Shown here: piece by piece, positions 53,425 through 64,000 of the stretch
Position numbering within the stretch: position 1 is the stretch's first letter
How the letters are laid out: every line of letters begins with the position of its first letter
Program-made: the position numbers and the translations under genes
Notes under the pieces: model-generated
Seen by the model: only the letters and a program-made list of their open reading frames with translations
Database searches by the model: none
What the model was told of the DNA's origin: nothing
Assembly: GCF_003790525.1 (NCBI RefSeq)
Contig: NZ_CP033635.1
Reading direction: 5' to 3' (one strand)
Source: Escherichia coli
GTDB taxonomy: Bacteria > Pseudomonadota > Gammaproteobacteria > Enterobacterales > Enterobacteriaceae
DNA: 64,000 bases

Positions 53425-54299
53425 GAACACACCTTTTATCTTTTATCGCTGTTCAGTATGAGTGATTACCTGTGGATTCCTGAGCACACATAAGGGGTAA
53501 CCATAAACATTAGCGATGCCATACGTATAACATCCCACATCACTATCAAGAAGATTATCTTTACCTCTGATGCTCGCTCAAAAACAGTTACGCTAAATAC
53601 CTTAAAAAGGTAATCACAAGTCAAACTCAGGAGATAATCACGCAAGAATGCAATATTAAAATTCAGATACTCATTTTTGGTAATAAAGAAGTAGTTGGAC
53701 TATTTCGATATTTATAATTTCCCACTACGTATTGACGCCCATTCATGAGTAAAGGCGCATTATATGAATTTAACAATCCAGATCAACTGAAAATACCTCA
53801 ACCTCATAAACACATAGCGTCAACATTCAATGACATAATGAGTAAAGATGTTGGTTATGCATACACGTCATTACTCTATGCCTATCCCTTAACAACCTGC
53901 TTTTTAAGACTGAATCCATTCAGCAATAGATAGCCAACATTATAACAATGACAATAAAAACAATATTTAAAACAATCAATAAAATATCAGACACAGACAA
54001 TTAAACCTTAAACAACAAACGGTTACATTGATTTTAGTTGATTTGCGCTACGCGTTCCCCATGAATAAAGCGTCATTTCAAATTAGCACCAATATTTACA
54101 TTAAATAAGACTAAGCTTATTGAACATTCACAACAGTCCAAACGTAGGTTTTGGGCTTCAATAGTTCTTTTCTTTTTTATTATCTGTTGCCTGGCAATCA
54201 TCAATCGATACTAAGGGCTTAACTGTACAGATATAACGTATCAAGAGGTAAGAGAAACCGCGCCATATGCAGACATGGCGCGGTTTTATGCAAAAACAA

Positions 54300-56333
54300 T
54301 CACGCGTCCGGGAACATCACGCTATGGCCCGGCGCTTCACGATGGAGATGGATAAAGTTAAGATGCCGCTCGTACTGGTCAAGAATATCGGTGATCACCT
54401 GCTCTTTGCTGTAGTCCATCAGGTCGTTGCCCTGGCTGCCTTCTAACAGGAAGGTTTCCAGCCGGTAGTAGGTCGATTTACCGCTACGTGCGCGGTAGGT
54501 AAAGCCCGGCACCGAATATTGCTGCGGCCAAATCTGATAGACAAAGTTTTGCTCTTCGCCCATATGCACCAACAAATCCAGATGCCCCAACTGTTGTCCC
54601 TCTTCCGGCGGCAGGCTTTTTAGCTCCACGTACGCGCCGCGCAACCGCAACTCCTGCGCCACTTCTTCCATTGCCGGGTAACAGACCGTCTCCATCATCT
54701 GTTTAGTGTAACGCGTGCCCGGATAATTCATCAGGCGCGAGAGACGTTTTTTCCAGCTCAGGCGATCCTGAAGCCCCAGCGGTCGCGGTGCGGTATCGCG
54801 GTTGGCACTTTCACGGCGGTAATCTTCTACCTTCAGAGATTTATACAACCCCGCCATCACGAAGAAGATCACAAAGCTGAACGGCAGGCCCATAATCACC
54901 GTGGTGTTTTGCAGCGCGGATATCCCGTTGGTCATCAGCATGCCGAGCGTCAGCAGGCCAATCGCCACCGACCAGAAGACGCGCAGCCAGCCGGGGGCGT
55001 CGCTGTTGATATCTTTAAGCTGCGAGGTGAAATTCCCCAGCACCAGCGCCCCGGAGTCCGCCGAGGTCACATAAAACAGCAGGCCAGTAATGGTGGCGAC
55101 GGAGGCGCTAAAGGTAAACGCCGGATACTGCGCCAGCAGGCTGTAGAAGCCGCGCTCCGGATGGACCATCGCTTCCTCGGCAAATGCCGCGCCGCCGTGG
55201 ATGATTTCATACAGCGCGCTATTGCCGAACACCGAGAGCCATAACAGCGTGAAGGTAAACGGAATAATCAACGTGCCCAGCACGAACTGGCGAATGGTAC
55301 GCCCACGCGAGATACGCGCCAGGAACAAGCCAACAAACGGCGACCATGCCACCCACCATGCCCAGAAGAAGAGCGTCCAGTTATTCATCCACTCAACCGG
55401 ACGGTCGAAGGCAAAACTGTTGAGCGTCATGCCCATAAAGCGATTCATATAGTCGCCAACGTTCAGCACCAGCGCATTAAGCAGGAACGAGGTGTCGCCC
55501 ATAAACAGCACGAAAAGGATCAATCCCAGCGCCAGCGCAACGTTAAGTTCCGATAACACACGAATCCCCTTATCGACACCGGAGGTGACAGAGATCGTGG
55601 CGATGATCACCGACAAGGCGATCAGTGCCGCTTTCGCCGCCATTGAATCGGGAATATCAAACAGTACGCTCAAGCCATAGTTAAGCTGCACCACACCGAT
55701 ACCGAGCGTAGTGGCAATACCGAAGATGGTGCCGATCACCGCTGCAATATCCACTGAGTGACCTATCGGCCCGTTAATCCGTTTACCGAAGATCGGGTAC
55801 AGCGCCGAGCGGATGGTGAGCGGCAAATTATAACGATAACTAAAGTATCCGAGCGCCATGCCCATCAGCGCATACATCGACCAGCCGGTTAAGCCGTAGT
55901 GAAACAGCGTCCAGACCATCGCCTGACGCGCGGCCTCAATCGTCTGACCCGCGCCTTCCGGCGGCTGCATATACTGCGTTACCGGTTCGGCTACGGAGAA
56001 GAACATCAGGTCGATACCGATCCCGGCAGCAAACAGCATCGCCGCCCAACTCAGCAGACTGAATTCCGGTTTTGATTGTTCTGGCCCGAGCTTCACCGAA
56101 CCAAAACGCGAACAAGCGATGCAGACCACAAAGACAATATAGAGCGTTGCCGCCAGCAGATAGTACCAACCGAAGGTTTTAGAGACCCAGTCCAGCGTGC
56201 GTCCAATCCACAGGGCCGAGAAGTCGCGAAACAGGATCGTTGTCAGGGAAAACAACAAAATCAGTCCGGCGGAAGTGTAAAACACCACCGGATTGATTTT
56301 GTCCTTTTCCCTGCTGTGTGAAAGGTCTGTCAT
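54300..56333 (-). CDS. betT: choline transporter (BCCT family)
   Basis: 677 aa, 12-TM core plus cytoplasmic C-terminal extension. Confidence 0.92.
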   Translation of the reverse strand: MTDLSHSREKDKINPVVFYTSAGLILLFSLTTILFRDFSALWIGRTLDWVSKTFGWYYLLAATLYIVFVVCIACSRFGSVKLGPEQSKPEFSLLSWAAMLFAAGIGIDLMFFSVAEPVTQYMQPPEGAGQTIEAARQAMVWTLFHYGLTGWSMYALMGMALGYFSYRYNLPLTIRSALYPIFGKRINGPIGHSVDIAAVIGTIFGIATTLGIGVVQLNYGLSVLFDIPDSMAAKAALIALSVIIATISVTSGVDKGIRVLSELNVALALGLILFVLFMGDTSFLLNALVLNVGDYMNRFMGMTLNSFAFDRPVEWMNNWTLFFWAWWVAWSPFVGLFLARISRGRTIRQFVLGTLIIPFTFTLLWLSVFGNSALYEIIHGGAAFAEEAMVHPERGFYSLLAQYPAFTFSASVATITGLLFYVTSADSGALVLGNFTSQLKDINSDAPGWLRVFWSVAIGLLTLGMLMTNGISALQNTTVIMGLPFSFVIFFVMAGLYKSLKVEDYRRESANRDTAPRPLGLQDRLSWKKRLSRLMNYPGTRYTKQMMETVCYPAMEEVAQELRLRGAYVELKSLPPEEGQQLGHLDLLVHMGEEQNFVYQIWPQQYSVPGFTYRARSGKSTYYRLETFLLEGSQGNDLMDYSKEQVITDILDQYERHLNFIHLHREAPGHSVMFPDA

Positions 56334-56397
56334 CCAGTATCCCCACTGTTATTGTTACCATTTAAAATCAAATTCGTAACAATTAAGACACATTTTA

Positions 56398-56417
56398 TAT
56401 TGAACGTCCAATCAATA
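56398..56417. promoter_or_regulatory. candidate BetI operator in divergent betT/betI promoter region
   Basis: TATTGA-acgtccaa-TCAATA inverted repeat. Confidence 0.4.
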
Positions 56418-56461
56418 ACCGCTTTAATAGATAAACAACGCTGATGAATGGAGTGGCGAAA

Positions 56462-57049
56462 ATGCCCAAATTGGGGATGCAGTCGATCCGGCGCAGACAA
56501 CTGATCGACGCCACGCTGGAAGCAATAAATGAAGTGGGCATGCACGATGCAACGATCGCGCAGATCGCCCGCCGTGCAGGCGTTTCTACGGGGATCATCA
56601 GCCACTATTTCAGGGACAAAAATGGTCTGCTGGAAGCAACCATGCGCGATATCACCAGTCAGCTGCGTGACGCGGTTTTGAATCGATTACATGCACTTCC
56701 GCAGGGCAGTGCAGAGCAGCGATTACAGGCGATTGTTGGCGGAAACTTCGACGAAACGCAGGTGAGCAGTGCGGCGATGAAAGCCTGGCTGGCGTTCTGG
56801 GCCAGCAGTATGCATCAGCCGATGCTCTATCGCTTGCAGCAGGTCAGTAGCCGCCGCTTATTGTCGAATCTGGTGAGCGAATTTCACCGCGAGTTACCGC
56901 GCCAACAGGCGCAGGAAGCGGGCTACGGACTTGCCGCGCTGATTGACGGATTATGGCTGCGCGCGGCACTGAGCGGCAAACCGCTGGATAAACCTCTCGC
57001 ACACTCGCTGACCCGTCACTTTATTACTCAGCATTTACCCACCGATTAA
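56462..57049 (+). CDS. betI: TetR-family repressor of bet genes
   Basis: ORF trimmed to [50 protein letters not shown] (195 aa). Confidence 0.9.
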
Positions 57050-57062
57050 CCGAGGAGACGTG

Positions 57063-58535
57063 ATGTCCCGAATGGCAGAACAGCAGCTTTATATACATGG
57101 TGGTTATACATCCGCCACCAGCGGTCGCACCTTCGAGACCATTAACCCGGCCAACGGTAACGTGCTGGCGACCGTGCAGGCCGCCGGGCGCGAGGATGTC
57201 GATCGCGCCGTGAAGAGTGCCCAACAGGGGCAAAAAATCTGGGCGGCGATGACCGCTATGGAACGCTCGCGTATTCTGCGTCGGGCCGTTGATATTCTAC
57301 GTGAACGCAATGACGAACTCGCAAAACTGGAAACCCTCGACACCGGAAAAGCATATTCGGAAACCTCAACCGTCGATATCGTTACCGGTGCGGACGTGCT
57401 GGAGTACTACGCCGGGCTGATCCCGGCGCTGGAAGGCAGCCAGATCCCGTTGCGTGAGACGTCATTTGTTTATACCCGCCGCGAACCGCTGGGCGTAGTG
57501 GCAGGGATTGGCGCATGGAACTACCCGATTCAGATTGCCCTGTGGAAATCCGCCCCAGCGCTGGCGGCAGGCAATGCAATGATTTTCAAACCGAGCGAAG
57601 TCACCCCGCTTACCGCGTTAAAGCTGGCCGAAATTTACAGCGAAGCGGGCCTGCCGGACGGCGTATTTAACGTGTTGCCGGGCGTGGGCGCGGAGACCGG
57701 GCAGTATCTGACCGAGCATCCGGGCATTGCCAAAGTGTCATTTACCGGCGGTGTCGCCAGCGGCAAAAAAGTGATGGCTAACTCGGCGGCTTCCTCCCTG
57801 AAAGAAGTGACCATGGAGCTGGGCGGTAAATCACCGCTGATCGTTTTTGACGATGCGGATCTCGATCTCGCCGCCGATATCGCCATGATGGCGAATTTCT
57901 TCAGCTCCGGTCAGGTGTGTACCAACGGCACCCGCGTCTTCGTTCCGGCGAAATGCAAAGCCGCATTTGAACAAAAGATTCTGGCGCGCGTTGAGCGCAT
58001 TCGCGCGGGCGACGTTTTCGATCCGCAAACTAACTTTGGCCCGCTGGTCAGCTTCCCGCATCGCGATAACGTGCTGCGTTACATCGCCAAAGGCAAAGAG
58101 GAAGGCGCGCGCGTACTGTGCGGCGGCGATGTACTGAAAGGCGATGGCTTCGATAACGGCGCATGGGTTGCACCGACCGTGTTCACCGATTGCCGCGACG
58201 AAATGACCATCGTGCGCGAAGAGATCTTCGGTCCGGTGATGTCGCTTCTCACTTATGAATCTGAGGACGAAGTGATTCGCCGCGCTAACGATACCGACTA
58301 CGGTCTGGCGGCGGGTATCGTGACGGCGGACCTGAACCTCGCGCATCGCGTCATTCATCAGCTGGAAGCGGGTATTTGCTGGATCAACACCTGGGGCGAA
58401 TCCCCGGCAGAGATGCCCGTTGGCGGCTACAAACACTCCGGCATTGGTCGCGAGAACGGCGTGATGACGCTCCAGAGTTACACCCAGGTGAAGTCCATCC
58501 AGGTTGAGATGGCTAAATTCCAGTCCATATTCTAA
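57063..58535 (+). CDS. betB: betaine-aldehyde dehydrogenase
   Basis: 490 aa; aldehyde dehydrogenase motifs ELGGKSP and [13 protein letters not shown]. Confidence 0.92.
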
Positions 58536-58548
58536 CCAGGAGGTTTAT

Positions 58549-60237
58549 TTGCAATTTGACTACATCATTATTGGTGCCGGCTCAGCCGGCAACGTCCTCG
58601 CTACCCGTCTGACTGAAGATCCGAACACAACCGTGCTGCTGCTTGAAGCAGGCGGCCCGGACTATCGCTTTGACTTCCGCACCCAGATGCCCGCCGCGCT
58701 GGCGTTCCCGCTACAGGGCAAACGCTACAACTGGGCCTATGAGACGGAACCCGAACCGTTTATGAACAACCGCCGCATGGAGTGCGGACGCGGCAAAGGT
58801 CTGGGCGGTTCATCGCTGATCAACGGCATGTGTTACATCCGTGGTAACGCGCTGGATCTCGATAACTGGGCGCAAGAACCCGGTCTGGAGAACTGGAGCT
58901 ACCTCGACTGTCTGCCCTACTACCGCAAGGCCGAGACTCGCGACGTGGGCGAGAACGACTACCACGGCGGCGACGGCCCGGTGAGCGTCACCACCTCCAA
59001 ACCCGGCGTCAATCCGCTGTTTGAAGCGATGATTGAAGCGGGCGTGCAGGCGGGCTACCCGCGCACGGACGATCTCAACGGCTATCAGCAAGAAGGTTTT
59101 GGCCCGATGGATCGCACCGTCACGCCGCATGGCCGTCGCGCCAGCACCGCGCGTGGCTATCTCGATCAGGCCAAATCGCGCTCTAACCTGACCATTCGTA
59201 CTCACGCCATGACCGATCACATCATTTTTGACGGCAAACGCGCGGTGGGCGTCGAGTGGCTGGAAGGCGACAGCACCATTCCGACCCGCGCGGCGGCGAA
59301 TAAAGAAGTGCTGTTATGTGCAGGCGCGATTGCTTCACCGCAGATCCTGCAACGCTCCGGCGTCGGCAACGCTGGACTGCTGGCGGAGTTTGATATTCCG
59401 CTGGTGCATGAATTACCTGGCGTCGGCGAAAATCTTCAGGATCACCTGGAGATGTATCTGCAATATGAGTGCAAAGAACCGGTTTCCCTCTACCCTGCCC
59501 TGCAGTGGTGGAATCAGCCGAAAATCGGTGCGGAGTGGCTGTTTGGCGGCACCGGCATTGGTGCCAGCAACCACTTTGAAGCAGGCGGATTTATTCGCAG
59601 CCGTGAGGAATTTGCGTGGCCGAATATTCAGTACCATTTCCTGCCAGTGGCGATTAACTATAACGGCTCGAACGCAGTGAAAGAGCACGGCTTCCAGTGC
59701 CACGTCGGATCGATGCGCTCGCCAAGCCGTGGGCATGTGCGGATTAAATCCCGCGCCCCGCACCAGCATCCAGCGATTCTGTTTAACTACATGTCGCACG
59801 AGCAGGACTGGCAGGAGTTCCGCGACGCAATTCGCATCACCCGGGAGATCATGCATCAACCGGCGCTGGATCAGTATCGTGGCCGCGAAATCAGCCCCGG
59901 TGTCGAATGCCAGACGGATGAGCAGCTCGATGAGTTTGTGCGTAATCACGCCGAAACCGCCTTCCACCCATGCGGTACGTGCAAAATGGGGTACGACGAG
60001 ATGTCCGTTGTGGATGGCGAAGGCCGCGTGCACGGGCTGGAAGGATTACGCGTAGTCGATGCGTCAATTATGCCGCAGATTATCACCGGCAATCTGAACG
60101 CCACGACGATTATGATTGGCGAGAAAATGGCGGATATGATTCGCGGGAAGGATGCGTTGCCGAGGAGCACGGCGGGATATTATGTGGCAAATGGGATGCC
60201 GGTGAGAGCGAAAAAAATGAGTCGTGATGTGAACTGA
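58549..60237 (+). CDS. betA: choline dehydrogenase (GMC oxidoreductase)
   Basis: Apparent TTG start giving (M)[20 protein letters not shown]; FAD-binding GxGxxG; GGAGG Shine-Dalgarno 7 nt upstream; C-terminal residues may differ from K-12. Confidence 0.85.
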
Positions 60238-60768
60238 CTCAGGAACCTATCAGATTGAGAGTTACCGTTCTACTATGAGGACCGAATCCTTATATAAAAC
60301 ACTGAGGTAACTCTCATGCTTCATATCCAGTATTCATGATGCTGGCTTTTTGCTGATATTTAACCCGAACATTCCTGATACAGACTATTAATTCATTTAT
60401 CTGCGGCAGATTTTATTTTCTGGATATATTATGAGTGAACAAATCAAACAGGATATCGATCTGATTGAGATTTTATTTTATCTGAAGAAAAAGGTAGATG
60501 AATACCAACAAAACTCTGGGCAGTAATAAACAGCATTCTGATAGAGAGTGCCTGTATAAAGCTGAAGTGACAATGACCGGGAAGGGAACCCGTTTTCAGG
60601 AATGGATGCCTGTCTTTTTCAATTTAAATATCCTGGCATTAGTAATGCCAGGATATTTACAGAAGAGCAGCATAACCATGACGGAACGGGGTTAAGTCAG
60701 GTTGTCCTAAACGCTATTTTCAACCTCGTATGCCTTCTTCAGGTTTATGTCCAGACTTCATATCTCTC

Positions 60769-61464
60769 TCAACAATCCTCAATAATCAGATACACCGCTT
60801 TCACCGGGCCATGAACTCCGACGACTTTGATAAGCTCAATATCCGCCGTTGAACTGGGGCCGCTAATGATGTTAATGCAGGAAGGCATTCGTTCACCGGC
60901 CTGCGCTTTCTGATGCAATTTTTCTGCGAGTTGCGCTACACGCGGCAGGATAGTGCTTTTACGCAGGATAAAAAGAGAAGATTCCGGGAGCAGGCTCAAT
61001 GAACGCCCGCGCCCGGCGGCGGAAAAAAGAACCACGCCTCCCGATTCGGTTAAACCATATTCAGCATATACGACGCCCACTTTAGCCTGCTCTGCTTGTG
61101 ATATGTTCTCAATACCTTTCGCCGGATCCCAAACAACGGCATTGCATTCCTGCTGCAAACGTTCGCTAATCCCCAATTCCTCCAGCCTCGTGTCACCGCT
61201 AATCACGATCGACTGATCTCCCAGCTCTTTACACAGACGTATTGCAGCTTCTGCGGCCTGCGCCTCGCTGGTCAGTTCACAGCGCGTCAACATAACATCG
61301 CTGGCAAACTGGATAAACGCGTCACAGCGCTGCTGTTGGTTAAGTTCGGTAAGCCGCTCGTTAGCATAGTTGTTAAGCGGCGCATCTTCTGCTTGCGGTT
61401 CAAGTCGCTGCGGGCGACCCAGTGCCTGAGCAACGTTATTCAAAAATTCGCTCCGATTATCCAT
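60769..61464 (-). CDS. ykgG: LutC-like (DUF162) protein
   Basis: ORF 60769-61611 trimmed to MDNRSEFLNNVAQALG (231 aa); 8-nt overlap with ykgF. Confidence 0.8.
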   Translation of the reverse strand: MDNRSEFLNNVAQALGRPQRLEPQAEDAPLNNYANERLTELNQQQRCDAFIQFASDVMLTRCELTSEAQAAEAAIRLCKELGDQSIVISGDTRLEELGISERLQQECNAVVWDPAKGIENISQAEQAKVGVVYAEYGLTESGGVVLFSAAGRGRSLSLLPESSLFILRKSTILPRVAQLAEKLHQKAQAGERMPSCINIISGPSSTADIELIKVVGVHGPVKAVYLIIEDC

Positions 61465-62884
61465 TCTTTTTCTCCTGCGCCTGATGTTTCTTAAACCAAC
61501 TACGGAAACTCTCTCCGTCAGCTTCAGGAAGATCGCGTGCTTCCATCCAGTCGCTAATCGCGCCAAATTTGAGTGGTGTTTTGCCGCCATTGATAAACCA
61601 GCTTGCCGCATGAGCGCCGGCCATCATCCCGACTTTCCACAATCCTGGATGACTATTGGCATAAGCGAACATTTTTATCGCCCGTTGCTCTGCTTTTGCG
61701 GTGATCCCTTTTTCAGCCATCACCCGACGATGACGCAAAATCAGTTTTGACAGCGGAATACGCACCGGACACACGCTGTCACAAGCGGTGCATAAAGAGC
61801 AGGCGTAGGGTAAATCTTTAAAATCTTTATAGCCGCCAAGTAGCGGAGAAATCACCGCACCAATTGGCCCTGGATAAATAGAGCCATATCCATGACCGCC
61901 AATATGGCGATATGCCGGACAAGTATTCATACAAGCCCCGCAGCGAATACAGCGCAGCACATCCCGAAATTCAGAGGCCAGCACCTCAGAACGCCCGTTA
62001 TCGACAATAACCAGATGAAACTCTTCAGGACCATCAACGTGCCCCGCTTCGCGCGGTCCTGTCAGCCAGGTGTTGTATCCCGTCAAACGTGCACCAACGG
62101 CACTGCGCGCCAGCATGGTGATCAATACATCTACCTCGGCAAACGTGGGGGCAATACGCTCCATTCCCATCACTGCAATATGCGTTTTAGGCAGCGTGGT
62201 ACACATTCGCGCATTACCTTCATTGGTCACCAGGCATACCGAACCGGTCTCTGCCACCGCGAAATTACAGCCGGTAATACCTATTTCAGCACTGAGGAAA
62301 TCTTCGCGGATTTTTTGCCGGATGAATAAGGTCATTGCTTCAGGCGTTTCCGACCCCTCATAGCCCAGACGTTCGTGTAGCACCCGACGGATCTGATGGC
62401 GATCTTTATGAATTGCCGGGACCACAACATGAGAGGGCGGATCTTGATCCAGCTGGAGAATGTATTCACCCAGATCGGTTTCAATCACCTGAATGCCAGC
62501 ATCCTGCAACACATGATTGACACCAATCTCTTCGGTCACCATCGATTTAGATTTCACCACCTTCCGGGCATTTTTGCGTTGGGCAACCTGTAAAATGTAG
62601 CGGGTAGCGTCTTCTTTGGTTTTTGCAAAATAGACGTGACCGCCGTTTTGCGTCACTTTTTCTGAGAGCTGGTACAGATAAGCGTCGAGATTACTCAGAA
62701 CATGATCACGTATCTGGGCGGCCCGATCGCGCCACTCCTCCCAGTGCCCCAATTCATCGACCATTTTTTGCCGATTTGCCCCGATACGCTGCTGCGCGTT
62801 TGCCACCGCTTTGCGCATGATCGGATCTTCAATTTGCTGACGGATGCGTGTCTTAAAATCTGTATTACTGGTTTTGATCGACAT
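61457..62884 (-). CDS. ykgF: LutB-like iron-sulfur protein
   Basis: 475 aa; two 4Fe-4S ferredoxin motifs CIRCGACMNTCP and CSLCTACDSVCP. Confidence 0.85.
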   Translation of the reverse strand: MSIKTSNTDFKTRIRQQIEDPIMRKAVANAQQRIGANRQKMVDELGHWEEWRDRAAQIRDHVLSNLDAYLYQLSEKVTQNGGHVYFAKTKEDATRYILQVAQRKNARKVVKSKSMVTEEIGVNHVLQDAGIQVIETDLGEYILQLDQDPPSHVVVPAIHKDRHQIRRVLHERLGYEGSETPEAMTLFIRQKIREDFLSAEIGITGCNFAVAETGSVCLVTNEGNARMCTTLPKTHIAVMGMERIAPTFAEVDVLITMLARSAVGARLTGYNTWLTGPREAGHVDGPEEFHLVIVDNGRSEVLASEFRDVLRCIRCGACMNTCPAYRHIGGHGYGSIYPGPIGAVISPLLGGYKDFKDLPYACSLCTACDSVCPVRIPLSKLILRHRRVMAEKGITAKAEQRAIKMFAYANSHPGLWKVGMMAGAHAASWFINGGKTPLKFGAISDWMEARDLPEADGESFRSWFKKHQAQEKKNG

Positions 62885-62894
62885 CTTTATATCC

Positions 62895-63614
62895 TCAGCG
62901 GCTCATCAACACTTCAGCAATATGCATCACTTTGACTTTCTGCCCTTCCCGTTGTAATCGCCCACTGATGTTCAGCAGGCAACTCACGTCAGCACCTATT
63001 AAATACTCAGGGCGGACTTCCATCAGGTGCGCAACCTTTTCTTGCACCATCTCGCCGGATATTTCGGCCATTTTAACCGAGAACGTGCCGCCAAATCCGC
63101 AGCAGGTATCCTGTTCAGCAAAGGTCAACAGCTCCAGTCCACGCACATTTTTCAGCAGCGTAAGTGGTTCGTCCTTCACCCCCAGCTTACGGGCCAGGCT
63201 ACAAGATGGGTGATACACCGCTCTCCCTTGCAAACTGGCACCTACATCGACTACCCCTAATGTATTAACAATAAAAGAGGTGAGATCCTGCATACGCGCG
63301 GCAACCTTTTCGGCACGTGATGCCCATTCAGGTTCATCCGCCAGATACGTCGGGTAACTTTTTACGGCATAGGTGCAAGAGCCAGCCGGTGAAATAATGG
63401 GATCGTCGTTATCCTCCAGTGCGGCGATCAGATTTTTCATCCCTGGAATCGCTTCTTTGATATAACCACTATTGATCGCAGGCTGACCGCAGCATCCCTG
63501 TTTCTCCGGGAAATTTACGCGACAGCCGAGTTTTTCCAGTAGCAGCACGGAGTCTCGTGCCATTCTTGATTTCAGGGCGTCACCAATACAGGTGACAAAG
63601 AAATTGACATTCAC
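62895..63614 (-). CDS. ykgE: LutA-like Fe-S oxidoreductase (cysteine-rich CCG domains)
   Basis: 239 aa; CCGQP and CCGFGG motifs. Confidence 0.85.
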   Translation of the reverse strand: MNVNFFVTCIGDALKSRMARDSVLLLEKLGCRVNFPEKQGCCGQPAINSGYIKEAIPGMKNLIAALEDNDDPIISPAGSCTYAVKSYPTYLADEPEWASRAEKVAARMQDLTSFIVNTLGVVDVGASLQGRAVYHPSCSLARKLGVKDEPLTLLKNVRGLELLTFAEQDTCCGFGGTFSVKMAEISGEMVQEKVAHLMEVRPEYLIGADVSCLLNISGRLQREGQKVKVMHIAEVLMSR

Positions 63615-64000
63615 AACTAATACTCCATTACTTCATACCCATTTATGCCCGATGGTTCCCCCCTTCCGGGGGATCAATCATCAATAAATATGGCGTTCTT
63701 TTTTAATTGGCTAGCAACATACCACCCCTCATTTGTATGACAAATGATAATCTTTCATCTAAACTTCAAATGCAATAACTAATTTTATTTCTTTCGGCAT
63801 CGCTCACATTTTATAGGGAAATCGACGATCATTTTTGGCATAAGAAATCCATTTAAAAAGGCTACATCCCTTATACCTATTCAGAGCTACTTATTCAGGG
63901 GTTATTGAGATATACACTGATGGTGTACAAAAAAATCACCGACAATAATCACGTATCAAGTAATAGTCGGGATTTTAGTTAATTGAAGCAATTTAGTTTG

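What the first reader, a model, noticed from the sequence alone, without database searches (positions are those of the whole stretch)
60769..63614. ykgEFG encodes a complete LutABC-type module
ykgE has CCG cysteine-rich motifs, ykgF has two 4Fe-4S ferredoxin motifs and ykgG is LutC-like, the same three-part architecture as lactate-utilisation LutABC. The genes overlap or abut (ykgG/ykgF overlap by 8 nt), indicating translational coupling. The physiological substrate in E. coli is not settled.
Basis: partly seen in the sequence, partly recalled or inferred. Interest (0 to 1): 0.3.

Follow-up and report, generated by a model that had tools for sequence, protein, structure and literature searches.

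The report
E. coli ykgEFG lactate-oxidation operon
This is the ordinary, already annotated E. coli ykgEFG operon, an intact three-subunit iron-sulfur enzyme of the LutABC/LldEFG type that published genetics already ties to L-lactate oxidation during nitrate respiration.

Summary
Three minus-strand genes lie at 62895-63614 (ykgE, two CCG domains), 61457-62884 (ykgF, LUD domain, two CxxCxxCxxxCP motifs and LutB_C) and 60769-61464 (ykgG, LUD domain). A 10-nt spacer separates ykgE from ykgF, and ykgF and ykgG overlap by 8 nt. YkgF passes NCBI's curated LutB/LldF equivalog model (777 bits, cut-off 445). The locus is identical to E. coli SMS-3-5, is annotated in RefSeq, and is near-complete in 5132 of 5426 complete E. 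coli genomes. Orthologues in Citrobacter, Pectobacterium, Proteus and Aeromonas, on IncF plasmids, and in Deinococcus and Paracoccus sit beside lactate permease and/or D-lactate dehydrogenase genes. The claim that the substrate is unsettled is partly out of date. Taylor et al. 2022 deleted exactly this block in E. coli MP1 and found an L-lactate-specific, nitrate-dependent fitness defect. A perfect YieP-type operator overlaps the promoter-like -35 hexamer. The open questions belong to the whole family: no flavin domain, no solved structure and an unknown catalytic site. Verdict: real, ordinary, already known, low interest.

The parts
62895..63614 (-). ykgE (LutA/LldE-type subunit), 239 aa, GTG start. 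It has two CCG cysteine-rich domains, with Cys 9/41/42/80 and 138/171/172/212, plus Cys31.
   Evidence: It aligns to HdrB of solved structures over residues 5-216. All nine Cys are invariant in four orthologues. RefSeq annotates it as ykgE, an (Fe-S)-binding protein.
61457..62884 (-). ykgF (LutB/LldF-type subunit), 475 aa. It has an N-terminal LUD domain (72-294), two CxxCxxCxxxCP ferredoxin motifs (312-323, 362-373) and a LutB_C domain (386-468).
   Evidence: TIGR00273, the LutB/LldF equivalog model, scores 777.3 bits against a cut-off of 444.8. The Fe-S part hits HdrC in the PDB.
60769..61464 (-). ykgG (LutC/LldG-type subunit), 231 aa, a single LUD domain (65-228) with the conserved C-terminal GVHGP motif (216-220).
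   Evidence: It matches the D. radiodurans LutC structure 2g40 at E 2.4e-9. It shows weak paralogy to the YkgF LUD domain.
61457..61464 (-). 8-nt overlap (ATGGATAA) of the ykgF stop and the ykgG start, with GGAG 9 nt upstream of the ATG.
   Evidence: The same overlap is present in the Citrobacter and Klebsiella-plasmid copies.
62885..62894 (-). 10-nt ykgE-ykgF spacer. A GAGGA Shine-Dalgarno-like sequence overlaps the ykgE stop codon.
63729..63747 (.). Perfect inverted repeat TCATTTGT-N3-ACAAATGA. Its core ATTTGTATGACAAAT (63731-63745) equals the published YieP (GntR-family repressor) consensus. It is the putative YieP operator.
   Evidence: The consensus and roughly 10-fold derepression of ykgEFG in yieP deletion strains come from PMC7642389. 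The sequence is identical in K-12, where the ChIP-exo was done. It is the only exact match in the 64-kb window.
63716..63743 (-). Promoter-like site: TTGTCA, 16 nt, TG-extended TATGTT. It is overlapped by the YieP repeat.
   Evidence: This is a consensus match only, and such matches are no more frequent here than in shuffles. No transcription start site data were examined.
60625..60659 (.). Perfect 17+17-nt hairpin about 110 nt downstream of the ykgG stop. It is a possible end of the transcript but lacks a U-run.
   Evidence: The RNA fold gives -27.5 kcal/mol, z = -4.85. Its function was not tested.

Best explanation
ykgEFG encodes a cytoplasmic, probably membrane-peripheral, three-subunit iron-sulfur L-lactate dehydrogenase of the LutABC/LldEFG type. 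It oxidises L-lactate to pyruvate and passes the electrons to the respiratory chain.

Proposed electron path:
- Inferred: L-lactate is bound and oxidised at the LUD-domain module, formed by the N-terminal LUD domain of YkgF together with YkgG.
- Motifs shown, function inferred: electrons pass through the two [4Fe-4S] clusters of the HdrC-like ferredoxin domain of YkgF.
- Inferred from HdrB homology: they then reach Fe-S centres held by the two CCG domains of YkgE.
- Inferred by analogy with GlcF and GlpC: YkgE hands them to the quinone pool, and from there they go to nitrate reductase or an oxidase. YkgF's C-terminal half plus YkgE is a split version of the GlcF/GlpC module.

Expression:
- The three genes are read from one promoter-like site whose -35 hexamer is covered by a YieP operator. 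The operon is therefore largely repressed unless YieP is relieved.
- The close gene junctions favour stoichiometric, possibly coupled, translation.
For: Architecture and curated-model membership:
- On the NCBIfam LdhH fusion model, YkgF aligns to positions 2-464 and YkgE to 468-705. On GlcF, YkgF 304-417 aligns to 16-130 and YkgE 8-236 to 175-403. The two proteins therefore form one functional unit that is fused in other lineages.
- YkgE aligns to solved HdrB and the YkgF Fe-S domain to HdrC.
- YkgG is homologous to the LutC crystal structure 2g40, including the GVHGP histidine that the LUD paper proposed as catalytic.

Genomic context:
- Orthologues at 75-93% identity lie beside Lactate_perm and/or Dld genes in Pectobacterium, Proteus, Aeromonas and Citrobacter.
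- The same association appears on Klebsiella and E. coli IncF plasmids. In Deinococcus and Paracoccus it comes with GntR/FadR regulators.

Genetics:
- Deletion of this exact block in E. coli MP1 gives an L-lactate-specific, nitrate-dependent defect.

Conservation and regulation:
- The locus is near-complete in 5132 of 5426 complete E. coli genomes.
- It differs from K-12 by only 3, 3 and 8 amino acids in YkgE, YkgF and YkgG.
Against: - No redox cofactor is known for the LUD fold, and no flavin or NAD domain is detected. The catalytic step is therefore conjecture.
- The acceptor is not uniform in the family. The H. pylori enzyme was reported as NAD-dependent.
- YkgE keeps only 4 of the 5 cysteines of each HdrB cluster motif, so its clusters may differ from HdrB's.
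- No transmembrane segment or demonstrated quinone site is present.
- The MP1 mutant had no phenotype in mouse colitis models, and LldD dominates L-lactate use there.
- No enzymology on purified E. coli YkgEFG was found.
- The promoter is only a consensus match.
Confidence: 0.8

Rival explanations
1. The enzyme is mainly a broader or different 2-hydroxy-acid oxidoreductase. L-lactate would be only a side substrate, and the true physiological substrate would be tied to the YieP regulon (yohJK, 3-hydroxypropionate stress) or to other hydroxy acids.
For: - Lactate oxidoreductases that include ykgEFG are reported to oxidise 2,4-dihydroxybutyrate.
- ykgEFG is co-repressed with yohJK by YieP rather than controlled by LldR.
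- The E. coli chromosomal copy has no adjacent lactate permease.
- No phenotype was seen in vivo.
Against: - Close orthologues sit directly next to lactate permease and Dld genes.
- The MP1 mutant phenotype is specific to L-lactate.
- In one search, the strains whose growth was severely reduced with 3-HP were the ydcA, adiY and yohJK deletions. The ykgEFG deletion was not among them.
- The 2,4-DHB result was obtained with a triple mutant, so the contribution of ykgEFG is not separated.
Confidence: 0.1
2. The complex has a thiol/disulfide or stress-related redox role. This would follow from its heterodisulfide-reductase-like subunits and its position beside the reactive-chlorine rclR-rclABC genes.
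For: - YkgE and the YkgF Fe-S domain are homologues of HdrB and HdrC.
- N. gonorrhoeae lutB and lutC mutants accumulate cysteine/cystine, lose glutathione, and grow normally on L-lactate (preprint).
- rclR lies immediately upstream on the same strand.
Against: - The first Cys of the CxxC in each HdrB motif is missing (A77, D209).
- The rcl adjacency is not seen in Citrobacter, Pectobacterium, Proteus or Aeromonas, where the neighbours are lactate genes.
- The gonococcal lutA mutant lacked the phenotype.
- The E. coli genetic phenotype depends on L-lactate.
Confidence: 0.04
3. The operon is intact but physiologically near-silent in E. coli. It would be a repressed back-up to LldD that contributes little under natural conditions.
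For: - YieP represses it about 6-10 fold in K-12 and W.
- There was no fitness effect in two mouse colitis models, where lldD did matter.
- There is no dedicated permease or regulator at the locus.
Against: - It is conserved and near-complete in about 95% of complete E. coli genomes, with few amino-acid changes relative to K-12. This argues for purifying selection.
- A measurable phenotype exists with L-lactate plus nitrate.
- Extra copies spread on plasmids and islands.
Confidence: 0.2

Closest known systems
LutABC (Bacillus subtilis) / LldEFG (Shewanella oneidensis, Campylobacter jejuni, Helicobacter pylori): three-subunit iron-sulfur L-lactate-oxidising complex
   Same: - Same gene order, A-B-C.
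- Same domain content: 2xCCG; LUD plus two ferredoxin motifs plus LutB_C; LUD.
- YkgF passes the curated LutB/LldF equivalog model.
- The L-lactate-specific genetic phenotype is reported in E. coli MP1.
   Different: - The E. coli chromosomal operon has no neighbouring lactate permease or GntR regulator and is repressed in trans by YieP.
- The phenotype was seen only with nitrate under anoxia.
- Direct percent identity to the B. subtilis and Shewanella proteins was not measured here.
LdhH-type L-lactate dehydrogenase (quinone) large subunit (NCBIfam NF045670, fused LutB-LutA)
   Same: YkgF aligns to model positions 2-464 and YkgE to 468-705. The two E. coli proteins together equal one LdhH polypeptide.
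   Different: The E. coli genes are split, and the scores (427 and 184 bits) are far below the 800-bit cut-off. They belong to a different subfamily.
GlcF (glycolate oxidase Fe-S subunit) and GlpC (anaerobic glycerol-3-phosphate dehydrogenase subunit C)
   Same: The HdrC-like dicluster ferredoxin followed by two CCG domains is reproduced by YkgF residues 304-417 plus YkgE. Both are presumed electron-output modules towards quinone.
   Different: GlcF and GlpC work with flavoprotein dehydrogenases (GlcD/E, GlpA/B). ykgEFG has LUD domains instead and no flavin domain. Scores are well below the cut-offs.
HdrB/HdrC of methanogen heterodisulfide reductase (PDB 5odc and others)
   Same: These are the only solved structures detectably homologous to YkgE and to the YkgF Fe-S domain.
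   Different: YkgE has 4, not 5, cysteines per CCG motif (A77 and D209 replace the first Cys of CxxC). The substrate and partners are different.
LutC of Deinococcus radiodurans (PDB 2g40), LUD domain, ISOCOT-like fold
   Same: The YkgG C-terminal half aligns at E 2.4e-9, including the GVHGP histidine.
   Different: R204 of the proposed D. radiodurans site is Val in YkgG. The NAD-docking model of that paper is untested.

Membership tests
LutABC/LldEFG L-lactate-oxidising Fe-S complex | Three adjacent co-oriented genes in the order A (CCG protein), B (LUD + ferredoxin), C (LUD) | tested here: met
   62895-63614, 61457-62884 and 60769-61464, all on the minus strand, with a 10-nt gap and an 8-nt overlap.
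LutABC/LldEFG L-lactate-oxidising Fe-S complex | Subunit A made of two CCG cysteine-rich domains | tested here: met
   (PF02754, two stretches, E 3.5e-34). The C...CC...C pattern occurs twice. The cysteines are invariant in orthologues.
LutABC/LldEFG L-lactate-oxidising Fe-S complex | Subunit B with a LUD domain, two 4Fe-4S ferredoxin motifs and LutB_C, passing the curated LutB/LldF equivalog model | tested here: met
   TIGR00273 scores 777.3 bits against a cut-off of 444.8, covering the full model length (1-432).
LutABC/LldEFG L-lactate-oxidising Fe-S complex | Subunit C a stand-alone LUD-domain protein of about 210-235 aa | tested here: met
   (PF02589, E 1.7e-30). Match to the LutC structure 2g40. 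About 33% identity to annotated LutC of Deinococcus and Paracoccus over the C-terminal half.
LutABC/LldEFG L-lactate-oxidising Fe-S complex | Measured sequence similarity to the experimentally characterised B. subtilis LutABC and S. oneidensis LldEFG proteins | not tested
   Those sequences were not obtainable. The homologue search listed only enterobacterial relatives at 75% identity or more. The only support is indirect, through the equivalog HMM.
LutABC/LldEFG L-lactate-oxidising Fe-S complex | L-lactate oxidation that depends on the three genes | not testable with these tools
   Literature only. The E. coli MP1 ykgEFG deletion has an L-lactate plus nitrate defect (PMC9701030). The deletion primers flank this block.
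LutABC/LldEFG L-lactate-oxidising Fe-S complex | Accessory, non-defining feature: lactate permease, Dld or a GntR regulator next to the operon | tested here: not met
   In the window and in K-12 the neighbours are rclR and betA/ykgH. The feature is present in orthologous loci elsewhere.
HdrB-type heterodisulfide reductase subunit | Five-cysteine CCG motif (C...CC...CxxC) in each domain, coordinating non-cubane 4Fe-4S clusters | tested here: not met
   In the alignment to 5odc_B, 9sfi_C and 8rvv_B, the first Cys of CxxC is A77 in domain 1 and D209 in domain 2. The five-Cys definition itself rests on my knowledge of the HdrB literature.
GlcF / GlpC Fe-S subunits | A single polypeptide with ferredoxin plus 2xCCG that scores above the curated cut-off and is partnered with a flavoprotein dehydrogenase gene | tested here: not met
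   The module is split over YkgF and YkgE. Scores are 99.8 and 79.5 bits against cut-offs of 333 and 278. No FAD-domain gene is in the operon.
LdhH fused L-lactate dehydrogenase (quinone) | A fused LutB-LutA polypeptide scoring at least 800 bits | tested here: not met
   426.7 bits (YkgF) and 184.3 bits (YkgE) on separate proteins.

The most novel reading that the evidence does not exclude
YkgEFG, like all LutABC enzymes, might oxidise lactate by a flavin-free mechanism of an undescribed kind. Catalysis would occur either at a LUD-domain heterodimer with an unknown cofactor, or directly at unusual four-cysteine CCG iron-sulfur centres. Its true role in E. coli might reach beyond lactate, to other hydroxy acids or to thiol redox balance, under control of the YieP regulator, whose effector was not identified in the sources read here. 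The data here do not exclude this. It is a property of the whole family rather than of this locus.
Probability: 0.15. Interest if true: 0.5.

Novelty: already known. Interest (0 to 1): 0.08.

Why it matters
As a genome-scan finding it adds little. The operon is annotated in RefSeq as ykgE/ykgF/ykgG (LutB/LldF and LutC/YkgG family), is close to universal in E. coli, and has published genetic evidence for L-lactate respiration with nitrate. Its remaining value is as a tractable model-organism entry point to a family-wide gap. No LutABC complex has a solved structure, and no catalytic cofactor has been identified. The electron acceptor is reported inconsistently, as NAD-independent in most species and NAD-dependent in H. 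pylori. The signal sensed by YieP, the E. coli regulator, was not identified in the sources read here.

Tried and rejected
- An Rfam scan of 60000-64000 at E <= 1 found nothing.
- Scans of the 386 nt upstream of ykgE for FNR, CRP, ArcA, NarL and PdhR/LldR consensus sites gave only matches with 3-5 mismatches, or short heptamers. The nitrate/anoxia dependence is therefore not explained by an obvious operator.
- The predicted 5' leader fold is not better than shuffles (z = -1.35). The terminator scan found no canonical terminator after ykgG.
- A hydropathy scan found no transmembrane segment in any subunit (maximum 19-residue Kyte-Doolittle mean 1.2-1.4).
- The homologue search with YkgF returned only relatives at 75% identity or more, so it could not supply the B. 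subtilis or Shewanella proteins for direct comparison.
- Pinchuk 2009, Chai 2009 and Malfoy 2024 are not held in the library. Their content is cited only through papers that quote them.
- A literature search for a LutABC structure or cofactor study found none.
- I considered that the ykgG start might be the upstream ATG at 61611 (280 aa). I rejected it because RefSeq and all homologues are 212-234 aa and the LUD domain begins at residue 65 of the short form.
- I did not run structure prediction. Sequence-level matches to HdrB, HdrC and 2g40 already place the folds.
Full report
**Observation**

The region holds three uninterrupted minus-strand genes at exactly the coordinates given:

| Gene | Coordinates | Start codon | Length |
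|---|---|---|---|
| ykgE | 62895-63614 | GTG | 239 aa |
| ykgF | 61457-62884 | ATG | 475 aa |
| ykgG | 60769-61464 | ATG | 231 aa |

- The ykgE stop and the ykgF ATG are 10 nt apart, with a GAGGA overlapping the stop codon.
- ykgF and ykgG overlap by 8 nt (ATGGATAA), with GGAG 9 nt upstream of the ykgG ATG.
- Pfam finds two CCG domains in YkgE. In YkgF it finds LUD, Fer4_8 and LutB_C. In YkgG it finds a single LUD domain. E-values range from 1e-10 to 1e-52.
- The two ferredoxin motifs are CIRCGACMNTCP and CSLCTACDSVCP.

**Identity of the locus**

- Bases 60200-64000 are 100% identical to E. coli SMS-3-5 and to at least 14 other listed complete genomes.
- 5132 of 5426 complete E. coli genomes hold at least 80% of this stretch.
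[quoted passage not shown] They lie between rclR and betA, as in K-12.
- Against K-12 the proteins differ at 3, 3 and 8 residues for YkgE, YkgF and YkgG.

**Family placement**

- YkgF passes NCBI's curated equivalog model TIGR00273 at 777 bits against a cut-off of 445, over the full model.
- YkgF and YkgE align end to end on the fused LdhH model (positions 2-464 and 468-705).
- YkgF residues 304-417 plus YkgE together reproduce GlcF and GlpC. YkgF's C-terminal half and YkgE are therefore a split version of a ferredoxin-plus-CCG module, which I presume passes electrons towards quinone.
- By sequence, the only solved relatives are HdrC (for the YkgF Fe-S domain), HdrB (for YkgE) and the D. radiodurans LutC structure 2g40 (for YkgG). 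No LutABC complex has been solved.
- In the HdrB alignments, YkgE keeps four of the five cysteines of each CCG motif. A77 and D209 replace the first Cys of the CxxC.
- All nine YkgE cysteines are invariant in the Citrobacter, Pectobacterium, Proteus and Aeromonas orthologues.
- YkgG keeps the GVHGP histidine that the LUD paper proposed as catalytic, but not the nearby arginine.
- No subunit has a transmembrane segment.

**Context elsewhere**

| Source | YkgF identity | Neighbouring genes |
|---|---|---|
| Pectobacterium | 86% | lactate permease directly upstream |
| Proteus | 77% | lactate permease directly upstream |
| Aeromonas | 75% | membrane D-lactate dehydrogenase |
| Citrobacter | 93% | lactate permease and membrane D-lactate dehydrogenase |
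| Klebsiella IncF plasmids | 94.7% | lactate permease and dld |
| E. coli IncF plasmids | 83% | lactate permease |
| Deinococcus | 38% | lactate permease, FadR/GntR regulator |
| Paracoccus | 40% | lactate permease, D-lactate dehydrogenase, GntR regulator |

- 364 plasmid records hold a match.
- Gene junctions are tight in all of these loci, from -8 to +12 nt.
- The E. coli chromosomal copy is unusual only in lacking these neighbours.

**Published function**

- Taylor et al. 2022 deleted ykgEFG in E. coli MP1. The mutant had a competitive defect with L-lactate plus nitrate under anoxia. It had no defect with D-lactate and none in two mouse colitis models.
- Their junction primers map with one mismatch each to 63631-63647 and 60749-60768. 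The deletion is therefore exactly this block.
- A 2026 paper cites Malfoy et al. 2024 for oxidation of 2,4-dihydroxybutyrate by the lldD, dld and ykgEFG enzymes, using a triple mutant.
- An engineered strain that does not consume lactate also carries a ykgF deletion.

**Regulation**

- Nguyen-Vo et al. 2020 found about 6-10 fold derepression of ykgEFG in yieP mutants, YieP ChIP-exo binding, and the consensus atTTGTaTGAcaAAT.
- The window has a perfect copy at 63731-63745. It lies inside an 8+8 inverted repeat (63729-63747) and is the only exact match in the 64 kb.
- The copy is identical in K-12.
- It overlaps the -35 hexamer of a promoter-like site, TTGTCA-16-TGnTATGTT. Repression by promoter occlusion is the likely mode, but this is an inference.
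- No convincing FNR, CRP, ArcA, NarL or PdhR/LldR site was found.
- No Rfam family matched the region.

**Mechanism, with status of each step**

- Shown: the domain content, the cysteine motifs, and the equivalence to fused LdhH and to GlcF/GlpC.
- From the literature: the L-lactate plus nitrate phenotype, and YieP repression.
- Inferred: lactate is oxidised at the LUD pair (YkgF N-terminus plus YkgG). Electrons then pass through the two YkgF [4Fe-4S] clusters to Fe-S centres in the YkgE CCG domains and on to quinone.
- Weak points: no cofactor is known for the LUD fold and no flavin domain is present. The H. pylori homologue was reported as NAD-dependent. A gonococcal preprint links lutB and lutC to thiol pools rather than to growth on lactate.

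**Rivals**

- A different primary 2-hydroxy-acid substrate (confidence 0.1).
- A thiol/disulfide role suggested by Hdr homology and the rcl neighbourhood (0.04). The rcl adjacency is not conserved, and the Hdr CxxC is incomplete.
- A largely silent back-up to LldD (0.2). This is compatible with the main reading.

**Verdict**

This is a real, intact, correctly described and already annotated member of a known enzyme family, with published genetic support in E. coli itself. Novelty is "already known" and interest is low. The open questions are the catalytic cofactor, the structure, the acceptor and the YieP effector. They belong to the family, not to this window.

Noticed in passing
window 60238-60768: Only 531 bp separate ykgG from betA, against 1123 bp in K-12. 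About 567 bp of K-12 sequence are missing, which removes most of ykgH (b0310). RefSeq annotates only two small hypothetical-protein remnants here.
   Followed up: partly
window 60625-60659: A perfect 17+17-nt palindrome (TAAATATCCTGGCATTA / TAATGCCAGGATATTTA) lies between ykgG and the ykgH remnant. The RNA hairpin gives -27.5 kcal/mol, z = -4.85, with no U-run. A BLAST match suggests a slightly imperfect copy (92% identity) in K-12. It could be a terminator, a processing site or a protein-binding site.
   Followed up: partly
L006 4271-7116 (Klebsiella IncF plasmid); L007 2665-7119 (E. coli IncF plasmid): Complete lctP-(dld)-lutABC cassettes ride on conjugative IncF plasmids. 364 plasmid records match YkgF, mostly from Klebsiella (121) and Escherichia (94), in two sequence types at about 94.7% and about 83% identity to YkgF. 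A diverged second E. coli LutB cluster (P0070/P0072, 82-83%) and a published ST127 island carrying lutABC-lutP fit the same picture of horizontally spreading extra copies.
   Followed up: partly
window 60769-61464 compared with L002 9759-10454: YkgG is noticeably more variable than its partners between this strain and K-12. It has 8 of 231 residues changed and 3% nucleotide divergence. YkgE has 3 of 239 changed and YkgF 3 of 475.
   Followed up: no
window 1-60199: The window is not simply SMS-3-5 throughout. Bases 54200-64000 carry one mismatch to that genome. A fixed-offset comparison of the first 49.9 kb (the tauABCD, mhp, lac, cyn, cod and prp region) fails, which implies indels relative to SMS-3-5. 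The source strain is a close relative, not necessarily SMS-3-5.
   Followed up: no
window 63658-63672: A short G+C hairpin (CCCCC-GGAA-GGGGG) sits in the presumed ykgE leader. Its loop differs from K-12 (GGTG). The leader as a whole does not fold better than shuffles (z = -1.35).
   Followed up: partly
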